Program-made: the position numbers and the translations under genes
From: a virus
Lineage: Duplodnaviria; Heunggongvirae; Uroviricota; Caudoviricetes
Reading direction: 5' to 3' (one strand)
DNA length: 64,000 nucleotides
IMG/VR virus record: IMGVR_UViG_3300031555_004037
Notes under the pieces: model-generated
The model's database searches: none
What the model saw: the letters and a program-made list of their open reading frames with translations, nothing else
What the model was told of the DNA's origin: nothing
Shown: positions 49,353 to 60,698 of the stretch, piece by piece
Numbering within the stretch: the first letter of the stretch is position 1
How the letters are laid out: the number at the start of each line of letters is the position of its first letter

Positions 49353-51833
49353 ATGTTAGATTTAATTGCAAAAAACAAAGAAATGTTAGATGCAAAAGCA
49401 TATAATATAGCAGACACTCGTTTAATGATGAGAATTGCAAGTCTTAAAACTATAAATGATTATGATTTGTATTTAATTGCGTGTTGTTTATGTAATTATG
49501 ATATTGAAGAAAAATCAGATGCAAGAGAACTTCGTATGGAATATTTCCTTAAAACTAATAATGGTTCTATTGTTGGATTTGAACACGGAGAATCTGATTA
49601 TGGTATTGTTGGAAAATCTGATATTAAATGTACTAATACAGGTAATGTAAATAAATTTGGTTTATATGAATATGAAATCAATGTAAATAATAAAGACCTA
49701 GTTTCTGATTTATGGGAAAAGAAACCAAAGGATTGTCTTAAATATGTGGATAACAAAACCTATGAAGATAAACTTATTGTTTCTATTAGTAAATCTCAAT
49801 TAGATAATTTTATGGCTATGTTAGATGAATTAGTTATTGATTATGAAATTTCAGATTTACAAAAGGGTTTAATTTATACAAATAAATCAGGTAATGAATT
49901 GATTGATATTTCTACCTTAGATTTACCTTTTGAACCATATCAATATCAAATAGAAGACGCTAAAAGATTAGTAAGTAAAAAAAGAGCATTACTAGGACAC
50001 GATATGGGCTGTGTATCAGGAAATAGTATAGTTCGTATTAAAGAAAGAGGAAAAAAAGCAACACGAGAAATAACCGTTTCTAATTTATTTAATTTGTTTG
50101 AAGAAGATAATACTATTCAAATTAAATGTTTAGTAAATGGAAGATTTGCTTATATGCCTATCAAAGCAGTAATTGATAAGGGTGTTCGTGATACTATTAG
50201 ATTAGTTACAAAAGATACTAGACTTGAATGTACTACTGACCACGAAATTTATACAGAAAAGGGTTGGGTAGAATCAAAAGATTTACAAGTTGGAGATTAT
50301 ATTGTTACAAATGAATTTGGAATTGATATACCTAATCATTTGATTAATTCGATTAAAAACAATATTGATGTTAATAAAACAATTAATGAAAACTGTGATT
50401 ATATATATACATCAAAAGTAGGTATTTCAGAAATTATTAGCATAGAAACTTGTGATACTCAACAAGTTTATGATATTGCTATTGACGATGTAGAAATTCA
50501 TAATTTTGTTTGTAATAATATTGTTGTTCATAATTGTGGAAAGACCTTAATTTCAATTTTAATTGGTCAAAGTTTAGATATGCCTAAATTAGTAATTTGT
50601 CCAGAGTCATTAAGATTAAATTGGTTAAGAGAAATTAAACAAGTTAAAAATGACGCAGATGTACAAATTTTATTAAGTAATGAAACACCTCATTTTGGAG
50701 AAGATTGGACAATAGTTGGTTATCAAACTGCAAGTAAATTTATTGATAATTTAATGAAATTTGAGTGTATCTTTGTAGATGAATGTCACAACTGTAAGGC
50801 TGTAAATAATTGGGGAAAACCGTCAAGTAAGAGAGCCGATGCAGTAATTACATTGGCAAATAATGCAGAGTATTGTTATTTATTATCTGGTACTCCAATG
50901 CCATCACATAATAAAGATTTATTCAATATTCTTAAAATGTTAAAATGTGAAGCATTTGATTTTAATAATAAATGGGCATTTAAGAATTATGCAGATAAAT
51001 ATTGTGACCCTAAAGAAACATATTTTGGTATGGACTATTCTGGTAATAGTAATTCAGATATGTTACACGGATTATTAAATAAACTAATGATACGAAGATT
51101 AAAGAAAGATGTATTACCACATTTAACAAAGCAAAGACAGTTTATTCCTATTGCACCAAAATTCAAAAAGGAATATATGGATATTGAAAAAAGATTATAT
51201 TTTCCTGAACCAGACGATACTTATATGGGATTGGCTATGACAGGAAGAAAATTATCTAGTCAATATAAAGTACAAACTGCTATTGAATTAGCAGAATCTT
51301 TAATTAATTCTGATGAAAGTGTAGTTATTGTTACAAACTTTATTGAAACAGCAGATATATTAAAAAATCATTTTAAAGATAAGGCTTGTGAAATTCGTGG
51401 TGGTATGAGTGATAAAGATAAGCAAAAAGCCATTGATGATTTTCAAAGTAAAAAGAAAACTGTATGTATATTAAATATGATGGCTGGTGGTGTTGGTATT
51501 ACTTTAACAGCAGCACATACAATGATAATGGTTGATTATGCTTGGTTGCCATCAGATATGACACAGGTAGAAGATAGAATTTGTCGTAGTGGTCAGACAG
51601 AGAATTGTATGATTTATTATATTTATTGTGAAAATTCTATTTTAGATAATATATTTATTGAGATGATTTCTGATAAATCAGCAAATATAGACGCAGTTGT
51701 AGATAATGTAGAAAACACATTTAATTTAAGTGAGGAAAAGTTAGCCAATTCAACTTATATTGATTTACTTAAATCAAAGATTAAAGAAACTAAACCAAAG
51801 GCAAAGCGTGGCAGAAAAAAGAAGACTGAATAA
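49353..51833 (+). CDS. SNF2/Rad54-family helicase with a mini-intein inside the Walker A motif
   Basis: Host motif DMG|CGKT split by the intein; DExH box VDECHNCK; motif VI QVEDRICRSGQT; remaining helicase motifs intact. Confidence 0.8.
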   Translation: MLDLIAKNKEMLDAKAYNIADTRLMMRIASLKTINDYDLYLIACCLCNYDIEEKSDARELRMEYFLKTNNGSIVGFEHGESDYGIVGKSDIKCTNTGNVNKFGLYEYEINVNNKDLVSDLWEKKPKDCLKYVDNKTYEDKLIVSISKSQLDNFMAMLDELVIDYEISDLQKGLIYTNKSGNELIDISTLDLPFEPYQYQIEDAKRLVSKKRALLGHDMGCVSGNSIVRIKERGKKATREITVSNLFNLFEEDNTIQIKCLVNGRFAYMPIKAVIDKGVRDTIRLVTKDTRLECTTDHEIYTEKGWVESKDLQVGDYIVTNEFGIDIPNHLINSIKNNIDVNKTINENCDYIYTSKVGISEIISIETCDTQQVYDIAIDDVEIHNFVCNNIVVHNCGKTLISILIGQSLDMPKLVICPESLRLNWLREIKQVKNDADVQILLSNETPHFGEDWTIVGYQTASKFIDNLMKFECIFVDECHNCKAVNNWGKPSSKRADAVITLANNAEYCYLLSGTPMPSHNKDLFNILKMLKCEAFDFNNKWAFKNYADKYCDPKETYFGMDYSGNSNSDMLHGLLNKLMIRRLKKDVLPHLTKQRQFIPIAPKFKKEYMDIEKRLYFPEPDDTYMGLAMTGRKLSSQYKVQTAIELAESLINSDESVVIVTNFIETADILKNHFKDKACEIRGGMSDKDKQKAIDDFQSKKKTVCILNMMAGGVGITLTAAHTMIMVDYAWLPSDMTQVEDRICRSGQTENCMIYYIYCENSILDNIFIEMISDKSANIDAVVDNVENTFNLSEEKLANSTYIDLLKSKIKETKPKAKRGRKKKTE
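50010..50534 (+). mobile_element. mini-intein (175 aa, no endonuclease domain) in the SNF2 helicase P-loop
   Basis: Begins CVSGNSIV, block B TTDHEIYT, ends VYDIAIDDVEIHNFVCNNIVVHN followed by +1 Cys (CGKT); excision would restore DMGCGKT. Confidence 0.75.
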
Positions 51834-52736: not shown

Positions 52737-53861
52737 GTGATTAAGGGAATTATTAAAATGATTATTGTTGCCTTAATATTTCTAGGATTATTATGGTTAG
52801 GCGGGTACTCATTTTCATCTTTTCAACATTCAATAGACCTTAAAAATCCAGGAGAGGTTTATGAGCCATTAATAGATGAATTACCCGATTTGCCTAATGT
52901 AGATGTTCCAGATTTACCAGATGTGGAAGACCCATTAGTATCAAATGATGATAATAATTCAGAAGTTGCATCTGATACAGATACAAATTTACCAAATGTA
53001 GATATTCCAGATATTAGTGATTATCCTACTGAATTAGAGCCAGTAGATGTAAATTTACCACAAGCAGGAAAAGGCGAGTTAAGTGAAATCGAATTATCTA
53101 CTACAAGAAATATTAAATTAACAATAAATGGACAATCAATAGAATTAACTTCTACAACTACTGCAAAATTTGTTAAATGGTTAGCAACAAATTATAATGA
53201 AGACGAAGAAGTTGAATTTGAAGAATTAGCACCTATTGATGAAGAAACAAGTAGTGAAGAAACTAAAAATCAAATAGAATATGAAACTGTATTAACCTCA
53301 AAAGAAGATTTAGATACAATAGTTGCTACAATAACAACTGTTGAAAAATTAGAAGAATTAGATGGTTATGATAGAAATGAATATGAAAAACCAGTACAAT
53401 CTTATGAATTAAATGGGGAAACATATAATAGAAATGATTATTCTTGGAAGAATAGTGAATTTTTAATTAGTGAAGAACCATTTGAATATATTTGTCCTTA
53501 TACAGGAGAAACAATTACTGATGAAAGTAAATTAGATTTTGACCATATTGTTCCTTTAAAATCTACATATTTAAGGGGTGCTGATAAATGGACACAAGAG
53601 CAGAAAAATGAATATGCTTATGACCAATCAATAGGTATAGATGTATTAAATTCTGCAAATAGAAGTAAATCAGATAAAGGTCCTACTGAATGGTTGCCTA
53701 CTGAAAATATAGAAGATTATTGTTATAGTTGGATATATATTTGTAGTAAATATAATTTAGTTATGACCGAAGAAGAATTAGAAATTTGTATGGATGAGAT
53801 AAATACAGCATTAAACAATGGAGAAACAATTCAATTATTAGGAATTGTAAATATACAATAA
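52737..53861 (+). CDS. membrane-anchored protein with C-terminal His-Me finger (DUF1524/HNH-like) nuclease domain
   Basis: N-terminal TM; acidic Pro-rich linker; LDFDHIVPLKSTY...NSANRSKSDKGPTEW matches the D-H-x-x-P ... N ... K-x-D-K pattern of DUF1524-type nucleases. Confidence 0.4.
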   Translation: MIKGIIKMIIVALIFLGLLWLGGYSFSSFQHSIDLKNPGEVYEPLIDELPDLPNVDVPDLPDVEDPLVSNDDNNSEVASDTDTNLPNVDIPDISDYPTELEPVDVNLPQAGKGELSEIELSTTRNIKLTINGQSIELTSTTTAKFVKWLATNYNEDEEVEFEELAPIDEETSSEETKNQIEYETVLTSKEDLDTIVATITTVEKLEELDGYDRNEYEKPVQSYELNGETYNRNDYSWKNSEFLISEEPFEYICPYTGETITDESKLDFDHIVPLKSTYLRGADKWTQEQKNEYAYDQSIGIDVLNSANRSKSDKGPTEWLPTENIEDYCYSWIYICSKYNLVMTEEELEICMDEINTALNNGETIQLLGIVNIQ

Positions 53862-53875
53862 GGGGGAATTTAATA

Positions 53876-54634
53876 ATGAATACATTAGATAAAATGAAAT
53901 TCATTACAATATTTGTGGATGTGATAAAATATGATAAAAAAGTTCCTTGTAGTATGTCAGAAGTAGATGCTATTATTCCTTTAATTAAAGAAGATTATCT
54001 TAATAATTGGGAAAAGTATTTATATCATCAATCAGGATTACCAGAATTTGAAGATGAAGATGCTTGGGATGATTGGTATGATAATTTAGATTTTGAAGAT
54101 TTAGATGAAAGAGATATTAGACGTTATGATTTACCTACTGACAAAATTCAAGTAGAATTAGAAAATTCAAATATTTTAATGAGTAATATTCATAAAGTTG
54201 TAAAAGAATTTTTTAATGACGCTACTGATATTGTAAATAGTGATAAAAAAGAAAATCCTAAAAATTTCCATTTTTCATATTCAATGGATAGACAAGGTGT
54301 ATTTGCAGAAATTGGTGCAAATAATATAAGAAGTGGAAATAAGACTTATAAGCAATTAAAAGATAGATTTGATTTACTTATTAAGGATATTGATAAAGCA
54401 GTTGCCGATTATAATAAAGTATCAAAAAATAATACATTTTTGGCTATACTACCTAATAAGGATAAATATAGTAGTGTAAACACAATTCCAGGATATGAAT
54501 TAAGTAGAGAATTTGGATTTACTTCGGTACACTTAAATTCTTCTAATTCAGACGATGACGACTTTAATTCTTATTATTCTGAATTTGGTAATAAGATTTT
54601 TAGTATTATAAAAGACGAAAATAGTTTTAATTAA
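53876..54634 (+). CDS. hypothetical protein
   Basis: 252-aa ORF with RBS GGGGGAATTTAATAATG. Confidence 0.4.
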   Translation: MNTLDKMKFITIFVDVIKYDKKVPCSMSEVDAIIPLIKEDYLNNWEKYLYHQSGLPEFEDEDAWDDWYDNLDFEDLDERDIRRYDLPTDKIQVELENSNILMSNIHKVVKEFFNDATDIVNSDKKENPKNFHFSYSMDRQGVFAEIGANNIRSGNKTYKQLKDRFDLLIKDIDKAVADYNKVSKNNTFLAILPNKDKYSSVNTIPGYELSREFGFTSVHLNSSNSDDDDFNSYYSEFGNKIFSIIKDENSFN

Positions 54635-54654
54635 GAAAGGAAATTAAAAAACAG

Positions 54655-54825
54655 ATGAGAAATAGTGGAAGAAAGCCAACAAGAGAAGAGCGTAAATATA
54701 TCGAGGGAGCTGGACTTGATACTTGGGTATGGTTAGTACAGAAAAATACAACTGATTTTATGCAAGTAATCAATAAAGAAACCAATGAAGAATTTACGAT
54801 TGATAAGTCTACTATTGAAATTTAA
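54655..54825 (+). CDS. small hypothetical protein (56 aa; not in ORF track)
   Basis: AGAAAGGAAATT upstream; followed by a clear terminator. Confidence 0.3.
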   Translation: MRNSGRKPTREERKYIEGAGLDTWVWLVQKNTTDFMQVINKETNEEFTIDKSTIEI

Positions 54826-54831
54826 AAATGA

Positions 54832-54872
54832 GTGCCTATTATAAGTATTTTCTTATGTAGGCACTTTGTTTT
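54832..54872 (+). terminator. rho-independent terminator
   Basis: GTGCCTA...TAGGCAC then TTTGTTTT. Confidence 0.65.
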
Positions 54873-54896
54873 ATATAAAACAGTTATAAAAATTAT

Positions 54897-54924
54897 TTAC
54901 AAATTTGTTAAATTGTGTTATAAT
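54897..54924 (+). promoter_or_regulatory. sigma-A-like promoter TTACAA -16- TGtTATAAT
   Basis: -35 54897-54902; extended -10 TGTGTTATAAT ending at 54924; upstream of ligase N-terminal gene. Confidence 0.5.
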
Positions 54925-54958
54925 GAATATAAATTAAACTTGGAGGTAATTATATATA

Positions 54959-56053
54959 ATGAACAAAGAACAGTATATTGAAGCGATTAAGCAGTTAAAT
55001 TATTACACAAAGAAATATGATGAAGGTAATCCAGAAATCTCTGATGAAGAGTGGGATAATTTATATTTCAGTTGTATTGAATTTGAAAATGAAACAGGTT
55101 ATATTGACGAAAATTCTCCGTCAGCAACAATTCAGTTTGATGTGGTAAATTCTTTAAAGAAAGTAACACATTCACATCCTATGTTATCATTGGATAAGAC
55201 CAAAGATGTTAAGGAAATTGAAAAGTTTGTAAAGAAGAGTCCTTGTATTGTTATGGCAAAAATGGACGGACTTACTTGTTCTTTAACATATAAGAATGGA
55301 AAGTTAGTTTCAGCAGAAACTAGAGGTAATGGTGTTGTAGGAGAAGATATTCTTCATAATGCAAAGACTATTAAATCTATTCCACAGACTATTGATTGTT
55401 TAGATGAAATTATTATTGACGGAGAAGTAATTTGTACTTATAAGGACTTTGAAGAGTTTTCTAATGAGTATAAAAATCCTAGAAACTTTGCATCTGGTTC
55501 AATTAGATTAATTGACCCTAATGAATGTGCAAAGCGTAAGTTGACTTTTGTTGCTTGGGATATTATTTCAACTGATGTAGATTTTACTGAAAAACTTTCA
55601 ATGCTTAACAAGTTTGGATTTGTTGTAGTACCTTATCAGGCTGTTGTTATGGATAATCTTGAAAAACAGCAGAAAGAAATGAAAGATTATTGTGCTACAA
55701 TGAGTTATCCTATTGACGGACTTGTGTATCGTATCAATGACCAAAAGGTATGGAATGAGCAGGGAAAAACAGAACATCATTTTTGTGGTTCATACGCATT
55801 TAAGTTCTATGACGAAATGTATGAAACCACTTTAATTGATATTGAATGGTCTGTTGGTAAAACTGGTTTAGTAACACCAGTAGCAATTTTTGAACCTGTT
55901 GAAATTGACGGTACAACAGTACAGAGAGCGTCACTTCATAATCTTACTATTATGGAAGAAGTTCTTGGCACACCTTATGTGGGTCAGAAGATTTGGGTAT
56001 TTAAAGCAAATATGATTATTCCACAGGTAGCAAAGGCAGAGAAAATTTCATAG
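54959..56053 (+). CDS. ligA: NAD-dependent DNA ligase, N-terminal fragment (adenylation + OB domains only)
   Basis: KxDG adenylation motif AKMDGLTCSL; OB-fold end NMIIPQV ~ LigA GDVIPQV; ORF stops exactly at the OB/Zn-finger junction. Confidence 0.8.
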   Translation: MNKEQYIEAIKQLNYYTKKYDEGNPEISDEEWDNLYFSCIEFENETGYIDENSPSATIQFDVVNSLKKVTHSHPMLSLDKTKDVKEIEKFVKKSPCIVMAKMDGLTCSLTYKNGKLVSAETRGNGVVGEDILHNAKTIKSIPQTIDCLDEIIIDGEVICTYKDFEEFSNEYKNPRNFASGSIRLIDPNECAKRKLTFVAWDIISTDVDFTEKLSMLNKFGFVVVPYQAVVMDNLEKQQKEMKDYCATMSYPIDGLVYRINDQKVWNEQGKTEHHFCGSYAFKFYDEMYETTLIDIEWSVGKTGLVTPVAIFEPVEIDGTTVQRASLHNLTIMEEVLGTPYVGQKIWVFKANMIIPQVAKAEKIS

Positions 56054-56059
56054 AAAGGA

Positions 56060-56395
56060 ATGGAAATTATGAAAATACATCCAACAAAACAGAAAGTAAT
56101 TGATAGTATTATAACTTTTATTAGTCAATATGATGAAATTACAAAGATGGTTATTTTTGGAGATGTATTAGAAGAGAATATTTCCGAAGATACTTTTATA
56201 GATATTGCAATCAAAACAATTACAGAAGAATTAGCATTAGATGATGAATTTGCTTATAATATTGTAAAAGAGATTGATGATATTACAGACGGAAAATTTA
56301 GTTTTATCATAATGAATGAACCTAATATTAGTTCTAATACAATGGAATTAATTGAAAGGGGAATTACTGTTTATGAAAAGGCAAAAGAAATCTGA
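56060..56395 (+). CDS. nucleotidyltransferase-fold (MNT-like) protein inside the ligase split
   Basis: MVIFGDVLEENISEDTFIDIAI resembles the Pol-beta NTase hG[GS]...D-h-D-h motif (degenerate). Confidence 0.35.
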   Translation: MEIMKIHPTKQKVIDSIITFISQYDEITKMVIFGDVLEENISEDTFIDIAIKTITEELALDDEFAYNIVKEIDDITDGKFSFIIMNEPNISSNTMELIERGITVYEKAKEI

Positions 56396-56849
56396 TTTAG
56401 AATTAAAAGAACAAGGACTACTTTTAATACGAAATGGGTTAAAGGCTTATGAAATTGGAGAGCCTTTACTTACAGATTATAATACTAAAGAAGAAAAAAC
56501 AAAAGCAGATAGTGCTAATAAAAATTGGGGTTGTTATATGACACAACAATCCATTGAATTAATTATAAAGGGTTTAATTAAGTATTATGGTTGGAATTTT
56601 AGAGATGGTCATTTTATTAGTGGTAATGCTAAAATTCTATCTGAATTATCAGAAAGAAATTCCATCTTACGACAATTAGATGATACCCTTTATACACTAC
56701 AATCTAAATTTAGTTATGTCTTATATAAATGGGCTACTATTGGTAGATATGTTGATTTATATGTTTATGCTAAAAATATTGAAACAGCATTAGAACTAAA
56801 TAAAGATTTATATGATTTTATTCATAGAAATCATTTATTAGATGAATAA
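56352..56849 (+). CDS. hypothetical protein overlapping the NTase-like gene (possible HEPN-like partner; start may be 56373)
   Basis: 23-44 nt overlap with upstream ORF; C-terminal FIHRNHLLDE; pairing by analogy to MNT/HEPN modules, weak. Confidence 0.3.
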   Translation: MKGELLFMKRQKKSDLELKEQGLLLIRNGLKAYEIGEPLLTDYNTKEEKTKADSANKNWGCYMTQQSIELIIKGLIKYYGWNFRDGHFISGNAKILSELSERNSILRQLDDTLYTLQSKFSYVLYKWATIGRYVDLYVYAKNIETALELNKDLYDFIHRNHLLDE

Positions 56850-56855
56850 AATTAT

Positions 56856-56883
56856 TTACAAATATTAGATAATGTGTTATAAT
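56856..56883 (+). promoter_or_regulatory. sigma-A-like promoter TTACAA -16- TGtTATAAT
   Basis: Identical architecture to the 54897 promoter; drives the ligase C-terminal gene. Confidence 0.5.
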
Positions 56884-56914
56884 AATTATAGTTAAGTGAA
56901 AGTGAGGAAATTAA

Positions 56915-57706
56915 ATGAATTTTTTAACCATTCCTAATGAATGTCCTATTTGTGGGGCAACATTGATTAGAGAGAAAAAGAATAAATCAGAAATGTTGAT
57001 TTGCCCTAATTCTAATTGTGGTTGTAAATTAGAGGGTAAATTATTAAATCTCTTTGGTACTAATGGATTAGATATTGAATCTATTTCAGTTAAAACTGTA
57101 AATAAGTTAATTGAATTAGGTTGGCTTACAAAAATGAGTGATGTATTTAGTCTTAAAAATCATAGAGATGAATGGATTAATATTGACGGTTTTGGAGAAA
57201 ACTCCGTTGATAAAATTCTTGAAGCACTTCCAACATCCATTGAATTATGGAGAGCAATCGCAATTTCTGGAATTTCAGGAATTGAAAAGGCAACTGCAAA
57301 AGTAATTGCAAAGGAATTTAAGGATTGGAAAGATTTTAGAAATGCCATTGATACTAATTATGATTTCACTAGAATTTCTGGAATTGGTACTGTAACTGCT
57401 AATTCAATTTTAGAATTTGATTATACTGAAATTGATGATGTTATGTGCTATTTAACTATAAAAGAAGAAGTTGTTGGTGGAAAATTAGATAATCAATCAT
57501 TCTGTATTACAGGTAAGTTATCTATGAAGAGAGATGACCTTGTAAAAATTATTGAACAGAATGGTGGAAAATTTGCATCTGTCAATAAGAATTTAACATA
57601 TCTTATCTGTAATGATAAGGACTCAAATTCTGGTAAGTCTAAAAAAGCAAAGGATTTAGGAGTTACTGTTATTACCGAAGATGAGTTTATGGACTTAATT
57701 AAATAA
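56915..57706 (+). CDS. ligA: NAD-dependent DNA ligase, C-terminal fragment (Zn finger, HhH, BRCT)
   Basis: Starts at Zn finger CPICGATL...CPNSNCGC; HhH region; BRCT FCITGKLSMKRDDLVKIIEQNGGKFASVNKNLTYLICND. Confidence 0.75.
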   Translation: MNFLTIPNECPICGATLIREKKNKSEMLICPNSNCGCKLEGKLLNLFGTNGLDIESISVKTVNKLIELGWLTKMSDVFSLKNHRDEWINIDGFGENSVDKILEALPTSIELWRAIAISGISGIEKATAKVIAKEFKDWKDFRNAIDTNYDFTRISGIGTVTANSILEFDYTEIDDVMCYLTIKEEVVGGKLDNQSFCITGKLSMKRDDLVKIIEQNGGKFASVNKNLTYLICNDKDSNSGKSKKAKDLGVTVITEDEFMDLIK

Positions 57707-57719
57707 AGAATTTTTAATT

Positions 57720-57750
57720 GGTGTATTGATTAATTTCGATACACCTTTTA
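57720..57750 (+). terminator. rho-independent terminator
   Basis: GGTGTAT...ATACACC then TTTT. Confidence 0.6.
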
Positions 57751-57775
57751 TTATGGAATAAAAAGGGGGAAAATT

Positions 57776-58177
57776 ATGAGATTGTATAATTATACTTCAT
57801 TAAAAAATAGAGAGGCTAAAATTTATAATGTTGGTGGTTATAATTTAGCAGGTGGTATGTCTATTGAATTTTTAAAAGTAGTAGGACCATTTGCAGGAAT
57901 TGGAATTGTTTTAGGTATGATTTTAGGACTACCATTTGGTTTTAGTTTTTTCAATGTATTTAGTGAAAACTTTCATTGGCAATGGACAGTATTATGGTTA
58001 GCATTAGGTATTGGTACAGGTTGTTGTTTATGGTATATTCAATTTGCAGGTTATAGATTATATCAATATTTAGCAGCATATTTCAAACCAAAGAAAGTAT
58101 ATATGAATGATTTTAGAACTACAGAGTTTAAATTAACAACAGTAAAATTTAAAGGATTTGTGAAAAATATTTTATAG
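57776..58177 (+). CDS. small membrane protein (2-3 TM)
   Basis: Hydrophobic helices FAGIGIVLGMILGLPFGFSFF and VLWLALGIGTGCCLWY. Confidence 0.45.
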   Translation: MRLYNYTSLKNREAKIYNVGGYNLAGGMSIEFLKVVGPFAGIGIVLGMILGLPFGFSFFNVFSENFHWQWTVLWLALGIGTGCCLWYIQFAGYRLYQYLAAYFKPKKVYMNDFRTTEFKLTTVKFKGFVKNIL

Positions 58178-58187
58178 GGGGTAAATT

Positions 58188-59492
58188 ATGGCTAAAAAAG
58201 ATACAGCACCAAATTCAAATACATTAAATCAAAATAATATAAGTATTATTGGAGATAATATATTATTTAATAATGGTGTAATTACAGCATTTTATATTAT
58301 ACCATTAACAAATTATTCTACTGCATCTCCACCAGGTATTCATAATTCAGTTGAAGATTTAACTAATATGATTACTAACTTAACAACAAATAATCCTAAT
58401 TTAACTTTTACTATTGAAAGAATTGAAAAGGTTATTAAGGCAAAAGATGTTTTAAATAATTTAATAGAAACTATAAATATTTATAGACCTGATTATGAAA
58501 TGCCACCTGAATTTACTAGAAATGTAAAAGATGACATTCAATCATATTGTATGTTGGGGATTGATATTCAGCAATCTACTGTTACTGATGTTGAAGATTT
58601 AACTCTTATGGACACAGTTAAAGCAGTAACAAAACAAATGGCTAATTCATTTGCAGGTTTGGGTAATATGAAAGCAGACCCAGAACAATTACTTAAAATT
58701 GAAGAGAATATTTATAGAACTATTAACTATAAATGTTTAAGAGCATCTAAAGAATTAGTATTTTATAATTTTGTAAGTAAGGTATTTCCTTGTTATGAAA
58801 TCTCTTATGATAAATTATCATATATAAATGAAAAATCATTTGAATCAATTATGGGTGCAGTTACACAAACTGTTTCAGATAATTTTGGTTGGTTTGAAAT
58901 GCACAATGAGGGTATTGATATTTTTGGATTAGACCCACAAACAACTTATGGTTGTATGTTAGATGTAAAAGCATTTCCACCACAAATTAGTACAACAAAT
59001 TTCCCTATGGATTATCCAAATGTTGTAACTACAATAAATTGTATTAAGAAAGAAGACGCAATTCTTAAATTAAAAAGAACTAGAGCAAGTGATAGATATG
59101 AGCGTGACCAAGCTATTGAGGCTGGTGCTGAAATTGAACAAGTAGAATCTACACAAGCAAATATTGATATTGCTACTTATGCTATTGAGGGAATTGAACA
59201 AGGCGATATATTATGTAATTTTAATACAAGTATGTTAGTTTTTGGTTCAACAAAAGAAGAATTAAAGCAAAGAGTTATGTCTATTATTACAAGTTGTAAG
59301 GATAGAAATATTTTAGTATCTAAATCTTTAACTCAAGCATTAGATTTCTTAAATAATTATATCAATAAGAAACCAAAGAAATATGACCATATGACAAATT
59401 TAATGTTTCCATTAAGTTTCCAACAAAATGCTGGTGCGACAGTAGGAGATATTGATAGTATTTGGTCGCCATCTATAGGAGAAGATTTATAA
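58188..59492 (+). CDS. hypothetical protein upstream of secretion ATPase
   Basis: 434-aa ORF, RBS GGGGGTAAATTATG; no motif recognised. Confidence 0.45.
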   Translation: MAKKDTAPNSNTLNQNNISIIGDNILFNNGVITAFYIIPLTNYSTASPPGIHNSVEDLTNMITNLTTNNPNLTFTIERIEKVIKAKDVLNNLIETINIYRPDYEMPPEFTRNVKDDIQSYCMLGIDIQQSTVTDVEDLTLMDTVKAVTKQMANSFAGLGNMKADPEQLLKIEENIYRTINYKCLRASKELVFYNFVSKVFPCYEISYDKLSYINEKSFESIMGAVTQTVSDNFGWFEMHNEGIDIFGLDPQTTYGCMLDVKAFPPQISTTNFPMDYPNVVTTINCIKKEDAILKLKRTRASDRYERDQAIEAGAEIEQVESTQANIDIATYAIEGIEQGDILCNFNTSMLVFGSTKEELKQRVMSIITSCKDRNILVSKSLTQALDFLNNYINKKPKKYDHMTNLMFPLSFQQNAGATVGDIDSIWSPSIGEDL

Positions 59493-59495
59493 TAA

Positions 59496-60698
59496 ATGAA
59501 AATGCTTACTATATATTATTATAGTAAGCATTACTATTTAGAAAGGAAATTTTTTAATATGGCTATTAAATTAAACTTAAATGAGAAAAAAGAAGAAAAA
59601 GTAAATAATAATGAAGATATTAAATCTTTATATAGACAAAATATGTCTATTGACGATTTACTTATTTTTACTACTGAACATAATTGTTCTGACTTATATA
59701 TTAAAGTTTTTGAACAGCCTTATATTTCTCGTTATGGTAAAATCATAAAAGTTCCTTGTCAACCTATTACAAAAGATACTTGGGCTAAATTTTATGATTC
59801 GTATATATTAAACGAGTTAAATGCAGGTTATGTTAGACAAAAATTATTAGATACCTCTGTTTCTATTAGAGTTCCAGAAGATAGTCCTAATTATGGTAAA
59901 TATCTAAATAATTGCTATCGTTATAGAGTTTCTTTTGGTTTTTCAGAAGAAAGAAATATTGCTACTTTCCGTATGATTAAACCAGAAATGCCTACTTTCG
60001 ATACTATTAATTATAATCAAACTTGTGTTGAAGCACTTAAAGTGGCTTATGCAAAACCGTCTGGAATTATTTATACTACTGGACCTACTGGTTCTGGTAA
60101 ATCAACTACTATGGCTGCTTGTATAAATACTTTTACTCAACCATCTAATATTCTTGATAATAAAGTATTGATTACACTAGAAGACCCTATTGAAAATGTA
60201 TTTGAATGTACTGATAGTGTTAAAATCAATCAAAAAGAATTAGGTAAGGATTTTATTTCTTTTGATATGGGTATTAAAGCAAGTTTGCGTGAACACCCTA
60301 ATATGATTATTGTTGGTGAGTGTAGAGATAAAGAGGTTATTTGTGCTGCTATTGAGGCTGCTCGTACAGGACATATATGTTCTACAACTTTCCACGCATC
60401 TGATGTTGGTGGTACTATTAACCGTTTATTATATCATTTAGATAATGATAGAAATTTATCTATGGACTTAATTTTACAGTTGAATATTGTATTATCACAG
60501 AAAATGATTAAACAAGATAATGGATATTTAGTAGATACTCAATTTTTATTATTTGATGATGAAGTAACTAAAAGATTAGTTGAAATTATTGAATTGCCTG
60601 ATGCAAATATTGCAGTTGAAATCAATAAATTAATTGCTGACGAAAGATTACAAGCAAAAGGTGTAGTTAAAGATTGGGATTATAAAGAGTTACATTAA
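59496..60698 (+). CDS. PilT/VirB11/GspE-family secretion (type IV pilus-type) ATPase
   Basis: Walker A TTGPTGSGKSTT; Asp box ITLEDPIE; Walker B MIIVGECRD; His box GHICSTTFHASD. Confidence 0.75.
   Translation: MKMLTIYYYSKHYYLERKFFNMAIKLNLNEKKEEKVNNNEDIKSLYRQNMSIDDLLIFTTEHNCSDLYIKVFEQPYISRYGKIIKVPCQPITKDTWAKFYDSYILNELNAGYVRQKLLDTSVSIRVPEDSPNYGKYLNNCYRYRVSFGFSEERNIATFRMIKPEMPTFDTINYNQTCVEALKVAYAKPSGIIYTTGPTGSGKSTTMAACINTFTQPSNILDNKVLITLEDPIENVFECTDSVKINQKELGKDFISFDMGIKASLREHPNMIIVGECRDKEVICAAIEAARTGHICSTTFHASDVGGTINRLLYHLDNDRNLSMDLILQLNIVLSQKMIKQDNGYLVDTQFLLFDDEVTKRLVEIIELPDANIAVEINKLIADERLQAKGVVKDWDYKELH

What the first reader, a model, noticed from the sequence alone, without database searches (positions are those of the whole stretch)
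54959..57706. NAD-dependent DNA ligase split into two genes by an ~860-bp insertion carrying a nucleotidyltransferase-like two-gene cassette and its own promoter
The first ORF ends exactly after the OB domain (NMIIPQV). The Zn-finger/HhH/BRCT remainder restarts 861 bp later (56915) with its own TTACAA-16-TGTGTTATAAT promoter and RBS. The intervening DNA (56054-56914) encodes an MNT-like NTase-fold ORF and an overlapping 165-aa ORF, a toxin-antitoxin-like pair. This is the genes-in-pieces arrangement produced by mobile-DNA insertion into a conserved phage gene. The ligase is either reconstituted in trans or inactivated.
Basis: partly seen in the sequence, partly recalled or inferred. Interest (0 to 1): 0.6.

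Follow-up and report, generated by a model that had tools for sequence, protein, structure and literature searches.

The report
Two-gene phage DNA ligase with swappable cassette
A large phage encodes its NAD-dependent DNA ligase as two separate genes, an arrangement already known from phage T5 and inherited here by a whole phage clade, and the space between the two genes is a variable slot that in this genome holds an exchangeable toxin-antitoxin-like gene pair that did not cause the split.

Summary
ligN (54959-56053) carries domain Ia, the adenylation domain and the OB fold. ligC (56915-57706) carries the Zn finger, HhH and BRCT domains. They lie 861 bp apart, and the gap holds an overlapping MNT-like/HEPN gene pair and a strong promoter-like site.

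The split is old. 98 of the 120 closest ligN protein clusters stop at the same linker. More than 110 standalone ligC clusters exist. Both halves are under purifying selection.

An 82%-identical relative has the same two genes with only a 70-bp spacer that carries a promoter. The cassette therefore did not split the gene, and the promoter is not cassette cargo.

Across the clade the gap runs from 14 bp to about 15 kb and often contains GIY-YIG homing endonuclease genes. The MNT-HEPN family appears only at this locus. It is swapped between genomes: ligN is 93% identical to the nearest relative, but the cassette proteins are 32-34% identical.

The MNT lacks a conserved catalytic DxD motif and the HEPN lacks the Rx4-6H motif.

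Phage T5 LigA/LigB is split at the homologous position, and a two-chain structure of a T5-like enzyme is solved (9HU3). This is a new variant of a known kind and of moderate interest.

The parts
54896..54924 (+). Promoter-like site P1 upstream of ligN (TTTACA-17-TATAAT with TG extension)
   Evidence: It matches 11 of 12 consensus positions and is an exact match to the motif shared with P2. Function is inferred, not shown.
54959..56053 (+). ligN: N-terminal subunit of the split NAD+-dependent DNA ligase (domain Ia, adenylation domain with KxDG, OB fold)
   Evidence: Pfam, PHROG and NCBIfam matches. It aligns to solved LigA structures over residues 14-360. K101, D103 and G104 are invariant in 28 homologs. 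dN/dS is 0.10-0.26.
56069..56395 (+). MNT-like (Pol-beta-type nucleotidyltransferase-like) small protein, 108 aa (alternative start at 56060). It lies 5' of the dyad and has a degenerate catalytic motif.
   Evidence: Pfam PF18765 scores 31.0 bits against a cut-off of 26.9. The family alignment shows no conserved DxD. Gene callers use the 108-aa start.
56373..56849 (+). HEPN-fold protein, 158 aa (alternative TTG start at 56352). It overlaps the MNT gene by 23 nt and has no Rx4-6H motif.
56855..56883 (+). Promoter-like site P2 upstream of ligC
   Evidence: It matches 11 of 12 consensus positions with a TG extension. Equivalent sites occupy the cassette-free spacers of L178, L181 and L185. The site is absent in L182.
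56902..56909 (+). Ribosome-binding site of ligC (GTGAGGAA). Similarity to relative L182 resumes here.
   Evidence: Read from the sequence and from the window/L182 alignment.
56915..57706 (+). ligC: C-terminal subunit of the split ligase (C4 Zn finger, HhH, BRCT)
   Evidence: Pfam, PHROG and NCBIfam matches. It aligns to residues 403-658 of solved LigA 1dgs. C10, C13, C30 and C35 are invariant. dN/dS is 0.15-0.31.
57720..57745 (+). Terminator-like hairpin plus T run, closing the ligN-MNT-HEPN-ligC unit
   Evidence: Found by the terminator scan. The scan found no terminator-like site between the HEPN gene and P2.

Best explanation
The region encodes a two-subunit NAD+-dependent DNA ligase. ligN self-adenylates from NAD+ and holds the catalytic lysine. 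ligC supplies the Zn-finger, HhH and BRCT DNA-binding module. The two polypeptides most likely assemble non-covalently into an active ligase, as in phage T5 LigA/LigB.

The fission is not recent. It was inherited from the ancestor of a large clade of big phages, with contigs up to about 530 kb, seen in gut and rumen metagenomes.

Once the gene was in two pieces, the space between them became neutral ground. Across the clade it has grown and shrunk from 14 bp to about 15 kb. Free-standing GIY-YIG homing endonucleases and recombination between related phages probably drive this turnover.

In this genome the slot holds one allele of a clade-specific, fast-exchanging MNT-like/HEPN dyad. The dyad is read from the ligN promoter, and a second promoter restores ligC expression. 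It is most likely a toxin-antitoxin-like conflict or addiction module that acts by binding rather than by the canonical AMPylation and RNase chemistry. It is not needed for ligase function.

Shown: the domain content, the age and spread of the split, the variable gap, the cassette swap and the purifying selection. Inferred: assembly in trans, promoter use, the role of the homing endonucleases, and the function of the cassette.
For: Complete LigA in two pieces:
- Domain matches and profile tiling show a full LigA split at the OB-to-Zn linker.

The split is ancestral and widespread:
- 98 of the top 120 ligN clusters are 361-385 aa and end within about 10 residues of IIPQ..AEK.
- A neighbour-joining tree puts them in one large clade with an intact root state.
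- More than 110 standalone ligC clusters of 257-286 aa exist. At least 16 share their longest-contig length with a ligN cluster.

Both halves are constrained:
- dN/dS is 0.10-0.31, and the catalytic and Zn residues are invariant.

The same split occurs without the cassette:
- L178/L179, L185, L181 and L287.

The gap is variable:
- 14 bp, 67-72 bp, about 300 bp, about 0.8 kb, 1.8, 3.3, 4.5, 5.6, 6.2, 8.6 and 14.8 kb.
- A GIY-YIG gene follows ligN in L186, confirmed by Pfam. Close homologs by eye follow ligN in L018, L052 and L188. Further homologs lie inside the gap in L189 and in L288 (weak GIY-YIG hit).

The cassette is swapped between genomes:
- Window against L182: ligN 93% and ligC 91% identical (dS about 0.3), but MNT 34% and HEPN 32%. 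The boundaries fall at the ligN stop and the ligC RBS.
- The window HEPN is closest (47%) to those of L187 and L188, whose ligN is only 64% identical.

Alleles are exchanged by local recombination:
- L184 (fused) and L185 (split) are 97-98% identical over 14 kb. Identity falls to 85%, 73% and 60% over the last 300 nt before the junction.

Precedent:
- T5 ligA and ligB are split at the homologous position, with promoters annotated in the 202-bp gap.
- The literature cites T5 as having a split NAD+ ligase. A truncated ligase with only domain Ia, the adenylation domain and the OB fold still adenylates itself (PMC1684257).
- PDB 9HU3 and 9I5I contain both chains of a T5-like enzyme.
Against: - No experiment shows that these two proteins bind each other or seal nicks.
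- The interaction surface used by the T5-like enzyme was not compared. T5 LigA is 32% identical to ligN, and T5 LigB is 25% identical to ligC.
- The cassette is present at the locus in about 10 of 15 sampled lineages. The ancestor may already have carried it, so an MNT-HEPN-bearing insertion as the original cause of the fission cannot be excluded.
- This persistent linkage could instead reflect a functional tie to the ligase.
- For L187 (394-kb contig) no ligC was recovered within 7 kb or by the pattern scan.
- Promoter and terminator calls are consensus matches only.
Confidence: 0.75

Rival explanations
1. One reading: an intact phage ligA was recently split by insertion of a mobile cassette of about 860 bp that brought the MNT-HEPN pair and its own promoter.
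For: - The cassette sits exactly between the ligN stop and the ligC RBS.
- Intact ligA genes exist in related phages.
- The MNT-HEPN family is found only at this locus in the split clade, so it could date from the original event.
Against: - Cassette-free relatives keep the split and the promoter: L178 at 82% identity, plus L181, L185 and L287.
- L182 has a cassette but no promoter before ligC.
- The split is shared by about 100 clusters.
- The cassette has no integrase, transposase or endonuclease gene, and no terminal repeats were noticed at the cassette ends in the alignment with L182 (no repeat search was run).
Confidence: 0.12
2. The ligase is inactivated. ligN or ligC is a decaying remnant, and the phage relies on the host LigA or on another ligase.
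For: - The C-terminal domains are needed for nick sealing in single-chain LigA (established biochemistry, recalled from memory).
- Some relatives carry an RNA-ligase-family gene nearby.
Against: - Both halves are under purifying selection, with dN/dS of 0.10-0.31 across dS up to 1-2.
- All catalytic and Zn-binding residues are invariant.
- Both halves are retained together on many contigs.
- The one apparent ligC break, in L183, is a scaffold gap of N characters.
Confidence: 0.05
3. The MNT-like/HEPN pair is a functional accessory of the split ligase, for example a regulator or chaperone of subunit assembly or a nucleotide-handling partner, rather than a selfish or conflict module.
For: - Iterated HMM searches of 10,151 ORFs from about 290 loci find this family only next to the split ligase. 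It lies in the gap in 9 lineages and directly after ligC in one. It is absent from roughly 200 intact-ligase loci.
Against: - It is absent from the gap and the flanks of L178, L185 and L287, and from the gap of L017, a short contig on which only about 360 bp of ligC were held.
- The 7 kb held downstream of ligN in L186 also lacks it.
- It diverges extremely fast and is swapped between genomes, which is typical of conflict genes.
- It occurs as two tandem pairs in L189.
- T5 functions without it.
Confidence: 0.1
4. The two halves are joined at the RNA or protein level (intron splicing, trans-splicing intein or translational bypass), so a single-chain ligase is made.
For: - These genomes are rich in inteins and homing endonucleases.
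Against: - No Rfam intron match in the window gap or in 12 split loci.
- No intein domain was found in ligN or ligC.
- ligN has its own stop, and ligC has its own RBS, ATG and promoter-like site.
- The gap contains expressed-looking genes and reaches 15 kb in relatives.
Confidence: 0.02

Closest known systems
Phage T5 split NAD+-dependent DNA ligase LigA (T5.116) / LigB (T5.117), and the solved two-chain T5-like enzyme (PDB 9HU3, 9I5I)
   Same: - The break falls at the homologous point, after the OB fold and before the Zn finger.
- The two genes are adjacent, co-oriented and in the order N then C.
- Promoters lie in the gap.
- PHROGs has separate families for the two halves, and both halves match them.
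   Different: - It is an independent lineage. ligN is 32% identical to T5 LigA, and ligC is 25% identical to T5 LigB. The clade nests among intact ligases of Firmicutes-type phages.
- T5 LigA is shorter at the N terminus (323 aa).
- The T5 gap is 202 bp with no genes. Here the gap is a variable island of 14 bp to about 15 kb, holding an MNT-HEPN pair in this genome.
Genes-in-pieces created by free-standing homing endonucleases (for example the nrdA split by mobE in Aeromonas phage Aeh1; recalled from memory, Friedrich et al. 2007)
   Same: - A conserved DNA-metabolism gene is divided at a domain boundary, and both parts are retained.
- Relatives carry GIY-YIG or HNH endonuclease genes in the gap.
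- A local divergence patch sits around the junction in a genome pair that is 97% identical.
   Different: - In this window there is no endonuclease gene in the gap.
- The cargo is an MNT-HEPN dyad.
- The split persists even where the gap is empty.
MNT-HEPN toxin-antitoxin dyads (type VII HepT/MntA; Pfam HEPN PF05168-type dyads)
   Same: - The gene order is MNT 5' and HEPN 3', with overlapping reading frames (order rule from PMC3710099).
- The MNT matches Pfam Polbeta.
   Different: - No Rx4-6H RNase motif, and no conserved DxD in the MNT.
- No PADLOC or NCBIfam match of note.
- It is phage-encoded and tied to a single locus.

Membership tests
NAD+-dependent DNA ligase (LigA), two-subunit form as in T5 LigA/LigB | Adenylation domain with the KxDG lysine, plus the NMN-binding domain Ia | tested here: met
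   Pfam DNA_ligase_aden at E 6e-49. K101-M-D103-G104 and the domain-Ia residues Y20, D29, W32, D33 and Y36 are invariant in 28 homologs. The protein aligns to solved LigA structures from residue 14.
NAD+-dependent DNA ligase (LigA), two-subunit form as in T5 LigA/LigB | OB-fold domain following the adenylation domain | tested here: met
   Pfam DNA_ligase_OB scores 75.5 bits against a cut-off of 32.9, covering residues 289-360 of 364.
NAD+-dependent DNA ligase (LigA), two-subunit form as in T5 LigA/LigB | C4 zinc finger, HhH domain and BRCT domain on the second polypeptide | tested here: met
   C10, C13, C30 and C35 are invariant. HHH_5 scores 31.1 bits against 27, and BRCT 57.6 bits against 21.3. 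The Zn-finger Pfam model itself scores below its cut-off (18.4 against 25.8). The protein aligns to residues 403-658 of 1dgs.
NAD+-dependent DNA ligase (LigA), two-subunit form as in T5 LigA/LigB | Break point between the OB fold and the Zn finger, homologous to T5 | tested here: met
   T5 LigA ends 8 residues after the aligned IP motif. T5 LigB residue 3 aligns with ligC residue 4. LigA profile positions 384-396 are the only ones not covered.
NAD+-dependent DNA ligase (LigA), two-subunit form as in T5 LigA/LigB | Physical association of the two subunits and nick-sealing activity | not testable with these tools
   This is inferred from purifying selection, co-retention of the two genes and the two-chain PDB entries of a T5-like enzyme.
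MNT-HEPN toxin-antitoxin dyad (type VII HepT/MntA-like) | Gene dyad with MNT upstream and HEPN downstream, translationally coupled | tested here: met
   The MNT gene is 56069-56395 and the HEPN gene is 56373-56849, a 23-nt overlap. The same order holds in all 10 homologous pairs.
MNT-HEPN toxin-antitoxin dyad (type VII HepT/MntA-like) | MNT with the catalytic G[SG]...DxD nucleotidyltransferase motif | tested here: not met
   The window protein has FGD...F-I-D-I. Across 11 family members only the Gly is invariant, and the two or three carboxylate positions are not conserved. The Pfam Polbeta match itself is just above its cut-off. The single-sequence AF2 model was unusable, with pLDDT 49.5.
MNT-HEPN toxin-antitoxin dyad (type VII HepT/MntA-like) | HEPN fold | tested here: met
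MNT-HEPN toxin-antitoxin dyad (type VII HepT/MntA-like) | Rx4-6H RNase motif in the HEPN protein | tested here: not met
   No such motif is present. The invariant residues are a Lys (E-x3-K-G helix), one His and the Tyr of an R-Y motif. The literature notes MNT-associated HEPN proteins that lack the motif yet are toxic (PMC3710099).
MNT-HEPN toxin-antitoxin dyad (type VII HepT/MntA-like) | Toxicity of the HEPN protein and its neutralisation by the MNT protein | not testable with these tools
   This needs expression assays.
Homing-endonuclease genes-in-pieces | An endonuclease gene located between the two gene pieces | tested here: not met
   None is present in the window gap. It is present in relatives. 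L186 has a GIY-YIG plus NUMOD-like gene, and L112 has NUMOD4 plus HNH_3. Look-alikes occur in L018, L052, L188, L189, L288, L111 and L069.
Group I/II intron or intein interruption | Intron RNA structure or an intein splicing domain at the break | tested here: not met
   No Rfam match of note in window 53000-59000 or in 12 split loci. No intein domain in ligN or ligC.

The most novel reading that the evidence does not exclude
The gap of the split ligase acts as a dedicated cassette-exchange site in a clade of very large gut and rumen phages. Homing endonucleases that target the conserved ligase sequences would drive co-conversion of whatever lies between the two halves. A locus-specific, catalytically non-canonical MNT-like/HEPN family has been maintained there as a set of highly divergent, swappable alleles. 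On this reading the cassette is a phage-phage or phage-host conflict module whose specificity is diversified by allele exchange, and the gene fission is kept because it provides a safe landing pad.
Probability: 0.3. Interest if true: 0.6.

Novelty: new variant of a known kind. Interest (0 to 1): 0.4.

Why it matters
Split NAD+ ligases were known from T5-like phages. This result shows a second, independent and much larger lineage of two-subunit LigA, with about 100 protein clusters on contigs up to about 0.5 Mb.

Fused and split alleles circulate in genomes that are 97% identical. That pairing is a natural experiment on whether covalent linkage of the catalytic and DNA-binding modules matters.

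The result also shows what happens after a fission. The former linker becomes an accretion and exchange zone for accessory genes, here a divergent MNT-like/HEPN pair that lacks the canonical catalytic motifs.

For annotation, the practical point is that the ligN and ligC halves should be called ligase subunits, not pseudogenes, even when they lie kilobases apart.

Tried and rejected
- DNA-level search of the region against 50,697 phage records found nothing. The closest cultured phage ligase is Clostridium phage c-st at 41% amino-acid identity.
- My first promoter pattern had the wrong spacing and found nothing. It was corrected.
- The intron hypothesis for ORF-less gaps of 700-800 bp in independently split loci gave no Rfam match. 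These gaps may be decayed endonuclease genes. This is unresolved.
- The word-index search with the HEPN protein gave only 4 hits. The family had to be collected from loci with local iterated HMMs.
- PADLOC gave only a marginal hit (E 0.003). NCBIfam gave nothing for the cassette.
- The MNT protein has no PDB sequence match, and its single-sequence AF2 model was unusable.
- My automatic split/intact classifier mislabelled several loci with tiny gaps (L043, L081, L209, L218, L231) as split because of stops elsewhere. Inspection shows in-frame junctions. The parsimony count of 13 state changes is therefore an overestimate.
- The apparent ligC break in L183 is a run of N characters.
- No paper was found for PDB 9HU3/9I5I or for biochemistry of the T5 split ligase.
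- The L001 gap ORF looks HNH-like by eye but has no Pfam match.
Full report
**1. The observation**

- ORF 54959-56053 (364 aa) matches the NAD-dependent ligase adenylation domain (E 6e-49) and the ligase OB fold (E 3e-21). It stops four residues after the OB match.
- ORF 56915-57706 (263 aa) carries a four-cysteine Zn finger, HhH and BRCT.
- On the 664-position NCBIfam LigA profile, the first protein covers positions 2-383 and the second covers 397-664. Together they make a complete LigA lacking only the OB-to-Zn linker.
- Both align to solved single-chain LigA structures over those ranges.
- The 861 bp between them hold two overlapping ORFs. One matches Pfam Polbeta nucleotidyltransferase (31.0 bits, cut-off 26.9). 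The other matches Pfam HEPN (32.1 bits, cut-off 22).
- Spacing from the ribosome-binding sites, and the gene calls on identical contigs, favour starts at 56069 (108 aa) and 56373 (158 aa).
- The promoter-like site before ligC (56855-56883) and a near-twin before ligN (54896-54924) are the only exact matches to their shared motif in the 64-kb window. They are also the two best sigma-70-like sites locally.
- A terminator-like hairpin follows ligC at 57720-57745, and the scan found no terminator-like site between the HEPN gene and the second promoter.
- The same arrangement is present on the contigs of at least eight independent assemblies, as far as each contig extends.

**2. The context**

The window is the replication and nucleotide-metabolism region of a very large phage.
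- It encodes topoisomerase II subunits, helicases and an RNA-polymerase-beta-like protein.
- Contigs carrying the identical ligN reach 324 kb. Relatives reach 330-530 kb.
- No cultured phage is close. The best is Clostridium phage c-st at 41%.
- Relatives binned into MAGs come mostly from ruminant and other gut samples.

**3. The split is old and widespread**

- Of the 120 best ligN protein clusters (57-100% identity), 98 are 361-385 aa. They end within a few residues of the motif IIPQ..AEK. The other 22 are full-length, 628-636 aa.
- In a neighbour-joining tree of 217 sequences the split forms make one large clade. Two small pockets of fused forms lie inside it. The more distant relatives (50-58% identity) are almost all intact, and the root state is intact.
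- More than 110 clusters of standalone ligC (257-286 aa, 54-97% identity) exist. At least 16 have the same longest-contig length as a ligN cluster, which indicates co-residence.
- Both halves evolve under purifying selection. dN/dS is 0.10-0.26 for ligN and 0.15-0.31 for ligC, over dS from 0.3 to above 1.
- The KxDG lysine, the domain-Ia residues, the four Zn cysteines and the HhH and BRCT motifs are invariant.
- ligC is therefore not a pseudogene.

**4. The cassette did not make the split**

- The relative with 82% ligN identity (L178/L179) is fully syntenic with the window. There ligN and ligC are separated by only 70 bp, and that spacer contains a TTTACA-17-TATAAT promoter and an RBS.
- L185 (72 bp) and L181 (67 bp) are alike. 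L287 has a 14-bp gap.
- The promoter before ligC is therefore a feature of the two-gene ligase, not cargo of the cassette.
- Conversely, the closest relative (L182, 93% ligN identity) has a cassette but no promoter. Its ligC RBS follows the HEPN stop directly.

**5. The gap is a variable island**

Within the split clade the distance from ligN to ligC takes these values:
- 14 bp
- 67-72 bp
- about 300 bp (one 81-aa ORF)
- about 0.8 kb (the window and L182)
- 1.8 kb (L180)
- 3.3 kb (L020)
- 4.5 kb (L019, L189)
- 5.6 kb (L288)
- 6.2 kb (L289)
- 8.6 kb (contig of L188 and L267)
- 14.8 kb (contig of L186 and L266)

A GIY-YIG endonuclease gene with a C2H2 finger and a NUMOD-like domain follows ligN in L186, confirmed by Pfam. 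Close homologs follow ligN in L018, L052 and L188. Further homologs lie inside the gap in L189 and in L288, where the GIY-YIG hit is weak.

In the mostly intact outgroup, sporadic independent splits at the same linker contain homing-endonuclease-type ORFs. L112 has NUMOD4 plus HNH_3, and L111 and L069 have similar ORFs. Other gaps of 300-1000 bp lack long ORFs. None of these gaps has an Rfam intron match.

Two genomes that are 97-98% identical over 14 kb differ in state. L184 is fused (629 aa) and L185 is split (367 + 264 aa). Identity falls to 85%, 73% and 60% in the last 300 nt before the junction, then returns to 98% about 100 nt after it. This is the signature of a local recombination or conversion patch that replaced one allele with the other.

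The neighbouring genes of relatives also carry intein-like insertions that the window lacks. Mobile endonuclease elements are therefore active in these genomes.

**6. The MNT-like/HEPN pair**

- HMMs built from the window pair and its homologs were iterated over 10,151 ORFs from about 290 loci. They find this family only in loci of the split clade. It lies in the gap in the window, L182, L180, L019, L020, L187, L188, L189 (two tandem pairs), L289 and L288 (HEPN only). In L181 it lies immediately after ligC. None was found in roughly 200 intact-ligase loci or elsewhere in the 64-kb window.
- The family is extremely divergent, and its relationships conflict with those of the ligase. Window against L182 gives ligN 93% and ligC 91%, but MNT 34% and HEPN 32%. 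DNA similarity is lost exactly at the ligN stop and regained at the ligC RBS.
- The window HEPN is most similar (47%) to those of L187 and L188, whose ligN is only 64% identical.
- This indicates cassette replacement between genomes, not divergence in place.
- The Rx4-6H RNase motif is absent. Only a Lys, a His and the Tyr of an R-Y motif are invariant.
- In the MNT-like protein only the motif glycine is invariant, and the catalytic carboxylates are not conserved. The window copy has F-I-D where DxD is expected. Its structure could not be modelled from a single sequence.
- Anantharaman et al. (PMC3710099) state three relevant points. MNT is nearly always 5' of HEPN. Some MNT-associated HEPN proteins lack catalytic residues yet are toxic. 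A conserved C-terminal tyrosine may be the site of nucleotidylation.
- The pair here therefore resembles an MNT-HEPN toxin-antitoxin dyad in architecture and fold. It fails two defining catalytic features of the type VII HepT/MntA system. I do not file it as a member of that system.

**7. The mechanism I consider most likely**

ligN and ligC are the two subunits of a heterodimeric NAD+ ligase.
- ligN charges itself with AMP. A truncated ligase with only domain Ia, the adenylation domain and the OB fold still adenylates itself (PMC1684257).
- ligC provides the DNA clamp through its Zn, HhH and BRCT domains.

Transcription from P1 would give ligN-MNT-HEPN and would read on into ligC. P2 would add ligC transcripts. 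This is inferred from consensus matches only.

The precedent is phage T5.
- Its ligA (323 aa) and ligB (259 aa) are broken at the homologous residue, with two annotated promoters in the 202-bp gap.
- The literature cites T5 as having a split NAD+ ligase.
- PDB entries 9HU3 and 9I5I hold both chains of a T5-like enzyme.

The cassette is most likely an accessory conflict or addiction module that hitch-hikes in a recombination-prone slot. A functional link to the ligase is a weaker rival.

**8. Novelty**

The two-gene ligase itself is a known kind. What is new:
- It is an independent lineage, and a far larger one than the T5-like group.
- Fused and split alleles coexist in near-identical genomes.
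- The former linker has turned into an island of 14 bp to 15 kb.
- A locus-bound, swappable, catalytically non-canonical MNT-like/HEPN family lives in that island.

I rate this a new variant of a known kind, with interest 0.4.

Noticed in passing
window 59496-60698; L178 10766-13423; L182 10374-13004: The T2SSE-type ATPase gene is uninterrupted in the window (400 aa). In relatives it is 876-885 aa, with an insertion of about 1.5 kb that carries a faint homing-endonuclease (Hom_end) signal, which looks like an intein. DNA similarity between the window and L182 skips exactly this insertion.
   Followed up: partly
window 49353-51833; L181 1-1770; L182 352-2859: The SNF2-family helicase of relatives carries Intein_splicing and, in L181, HNH_3 domains. 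No such insertion was seen in the window copy in a PHROG search only (no Pfam scan was run on it).
   Followed up: no
L019 7479-7985: The HEPN homolog in L019 has a TGA codon exactly where all homologs have a conserved Trp. This is either a nonsense mutation that makes a pseudogene or a hint of TGA-as-Trp decoding.
   Followed up: no
window 54655-54825: A 56-aa DUF6906 gene lies upstream of ligN. It is directly upstream in the window, L178, L180, L182 and L287, and a few genes further up in L184, L185 and L289. None was listed in L181 or L288.
   Followed up: no
L189 10528-12521: Two tandem MNT-like/HEPN-like pairs lie in one ligase gap. They have no Pfam match and were recognised only by the locally iterated family HMMs.
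   Followed up: partly
L181 14428-15110: An IS605 OrfB/TnpB-like (Cas12f-like) gene lies about 6 kb downstream of the ligase in a 401-kb relative.
   Followed up: no
L184 5041-5937; L185 5032-5928: An RNA-ligase-family (PF09414) gene lies about 1 kb upstream of the DNA ligase in two relatives. No counterpart was noticed next to the window ligase.
   Followed up: no
window 52737-53861: A 374-aa ORF two genes upstream of ligN has an acidic, repeat-rich N-terminal half. Its C-terminal part looks HNH/DUF1524-like by eye (DFDHIVP...NRSKSDKGP). It was not scanned against any library.
   Followed up: no
L041, L083, L211, L221, L249 (gaps between ligN and ligC): Independently split ligases in the mostly intact outgroup have gaps of 690-810 bp with no long ORF and no Rfam intron match. 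They may be decayed endonuclease genes or unrecognised introns.
   Followed up: partly
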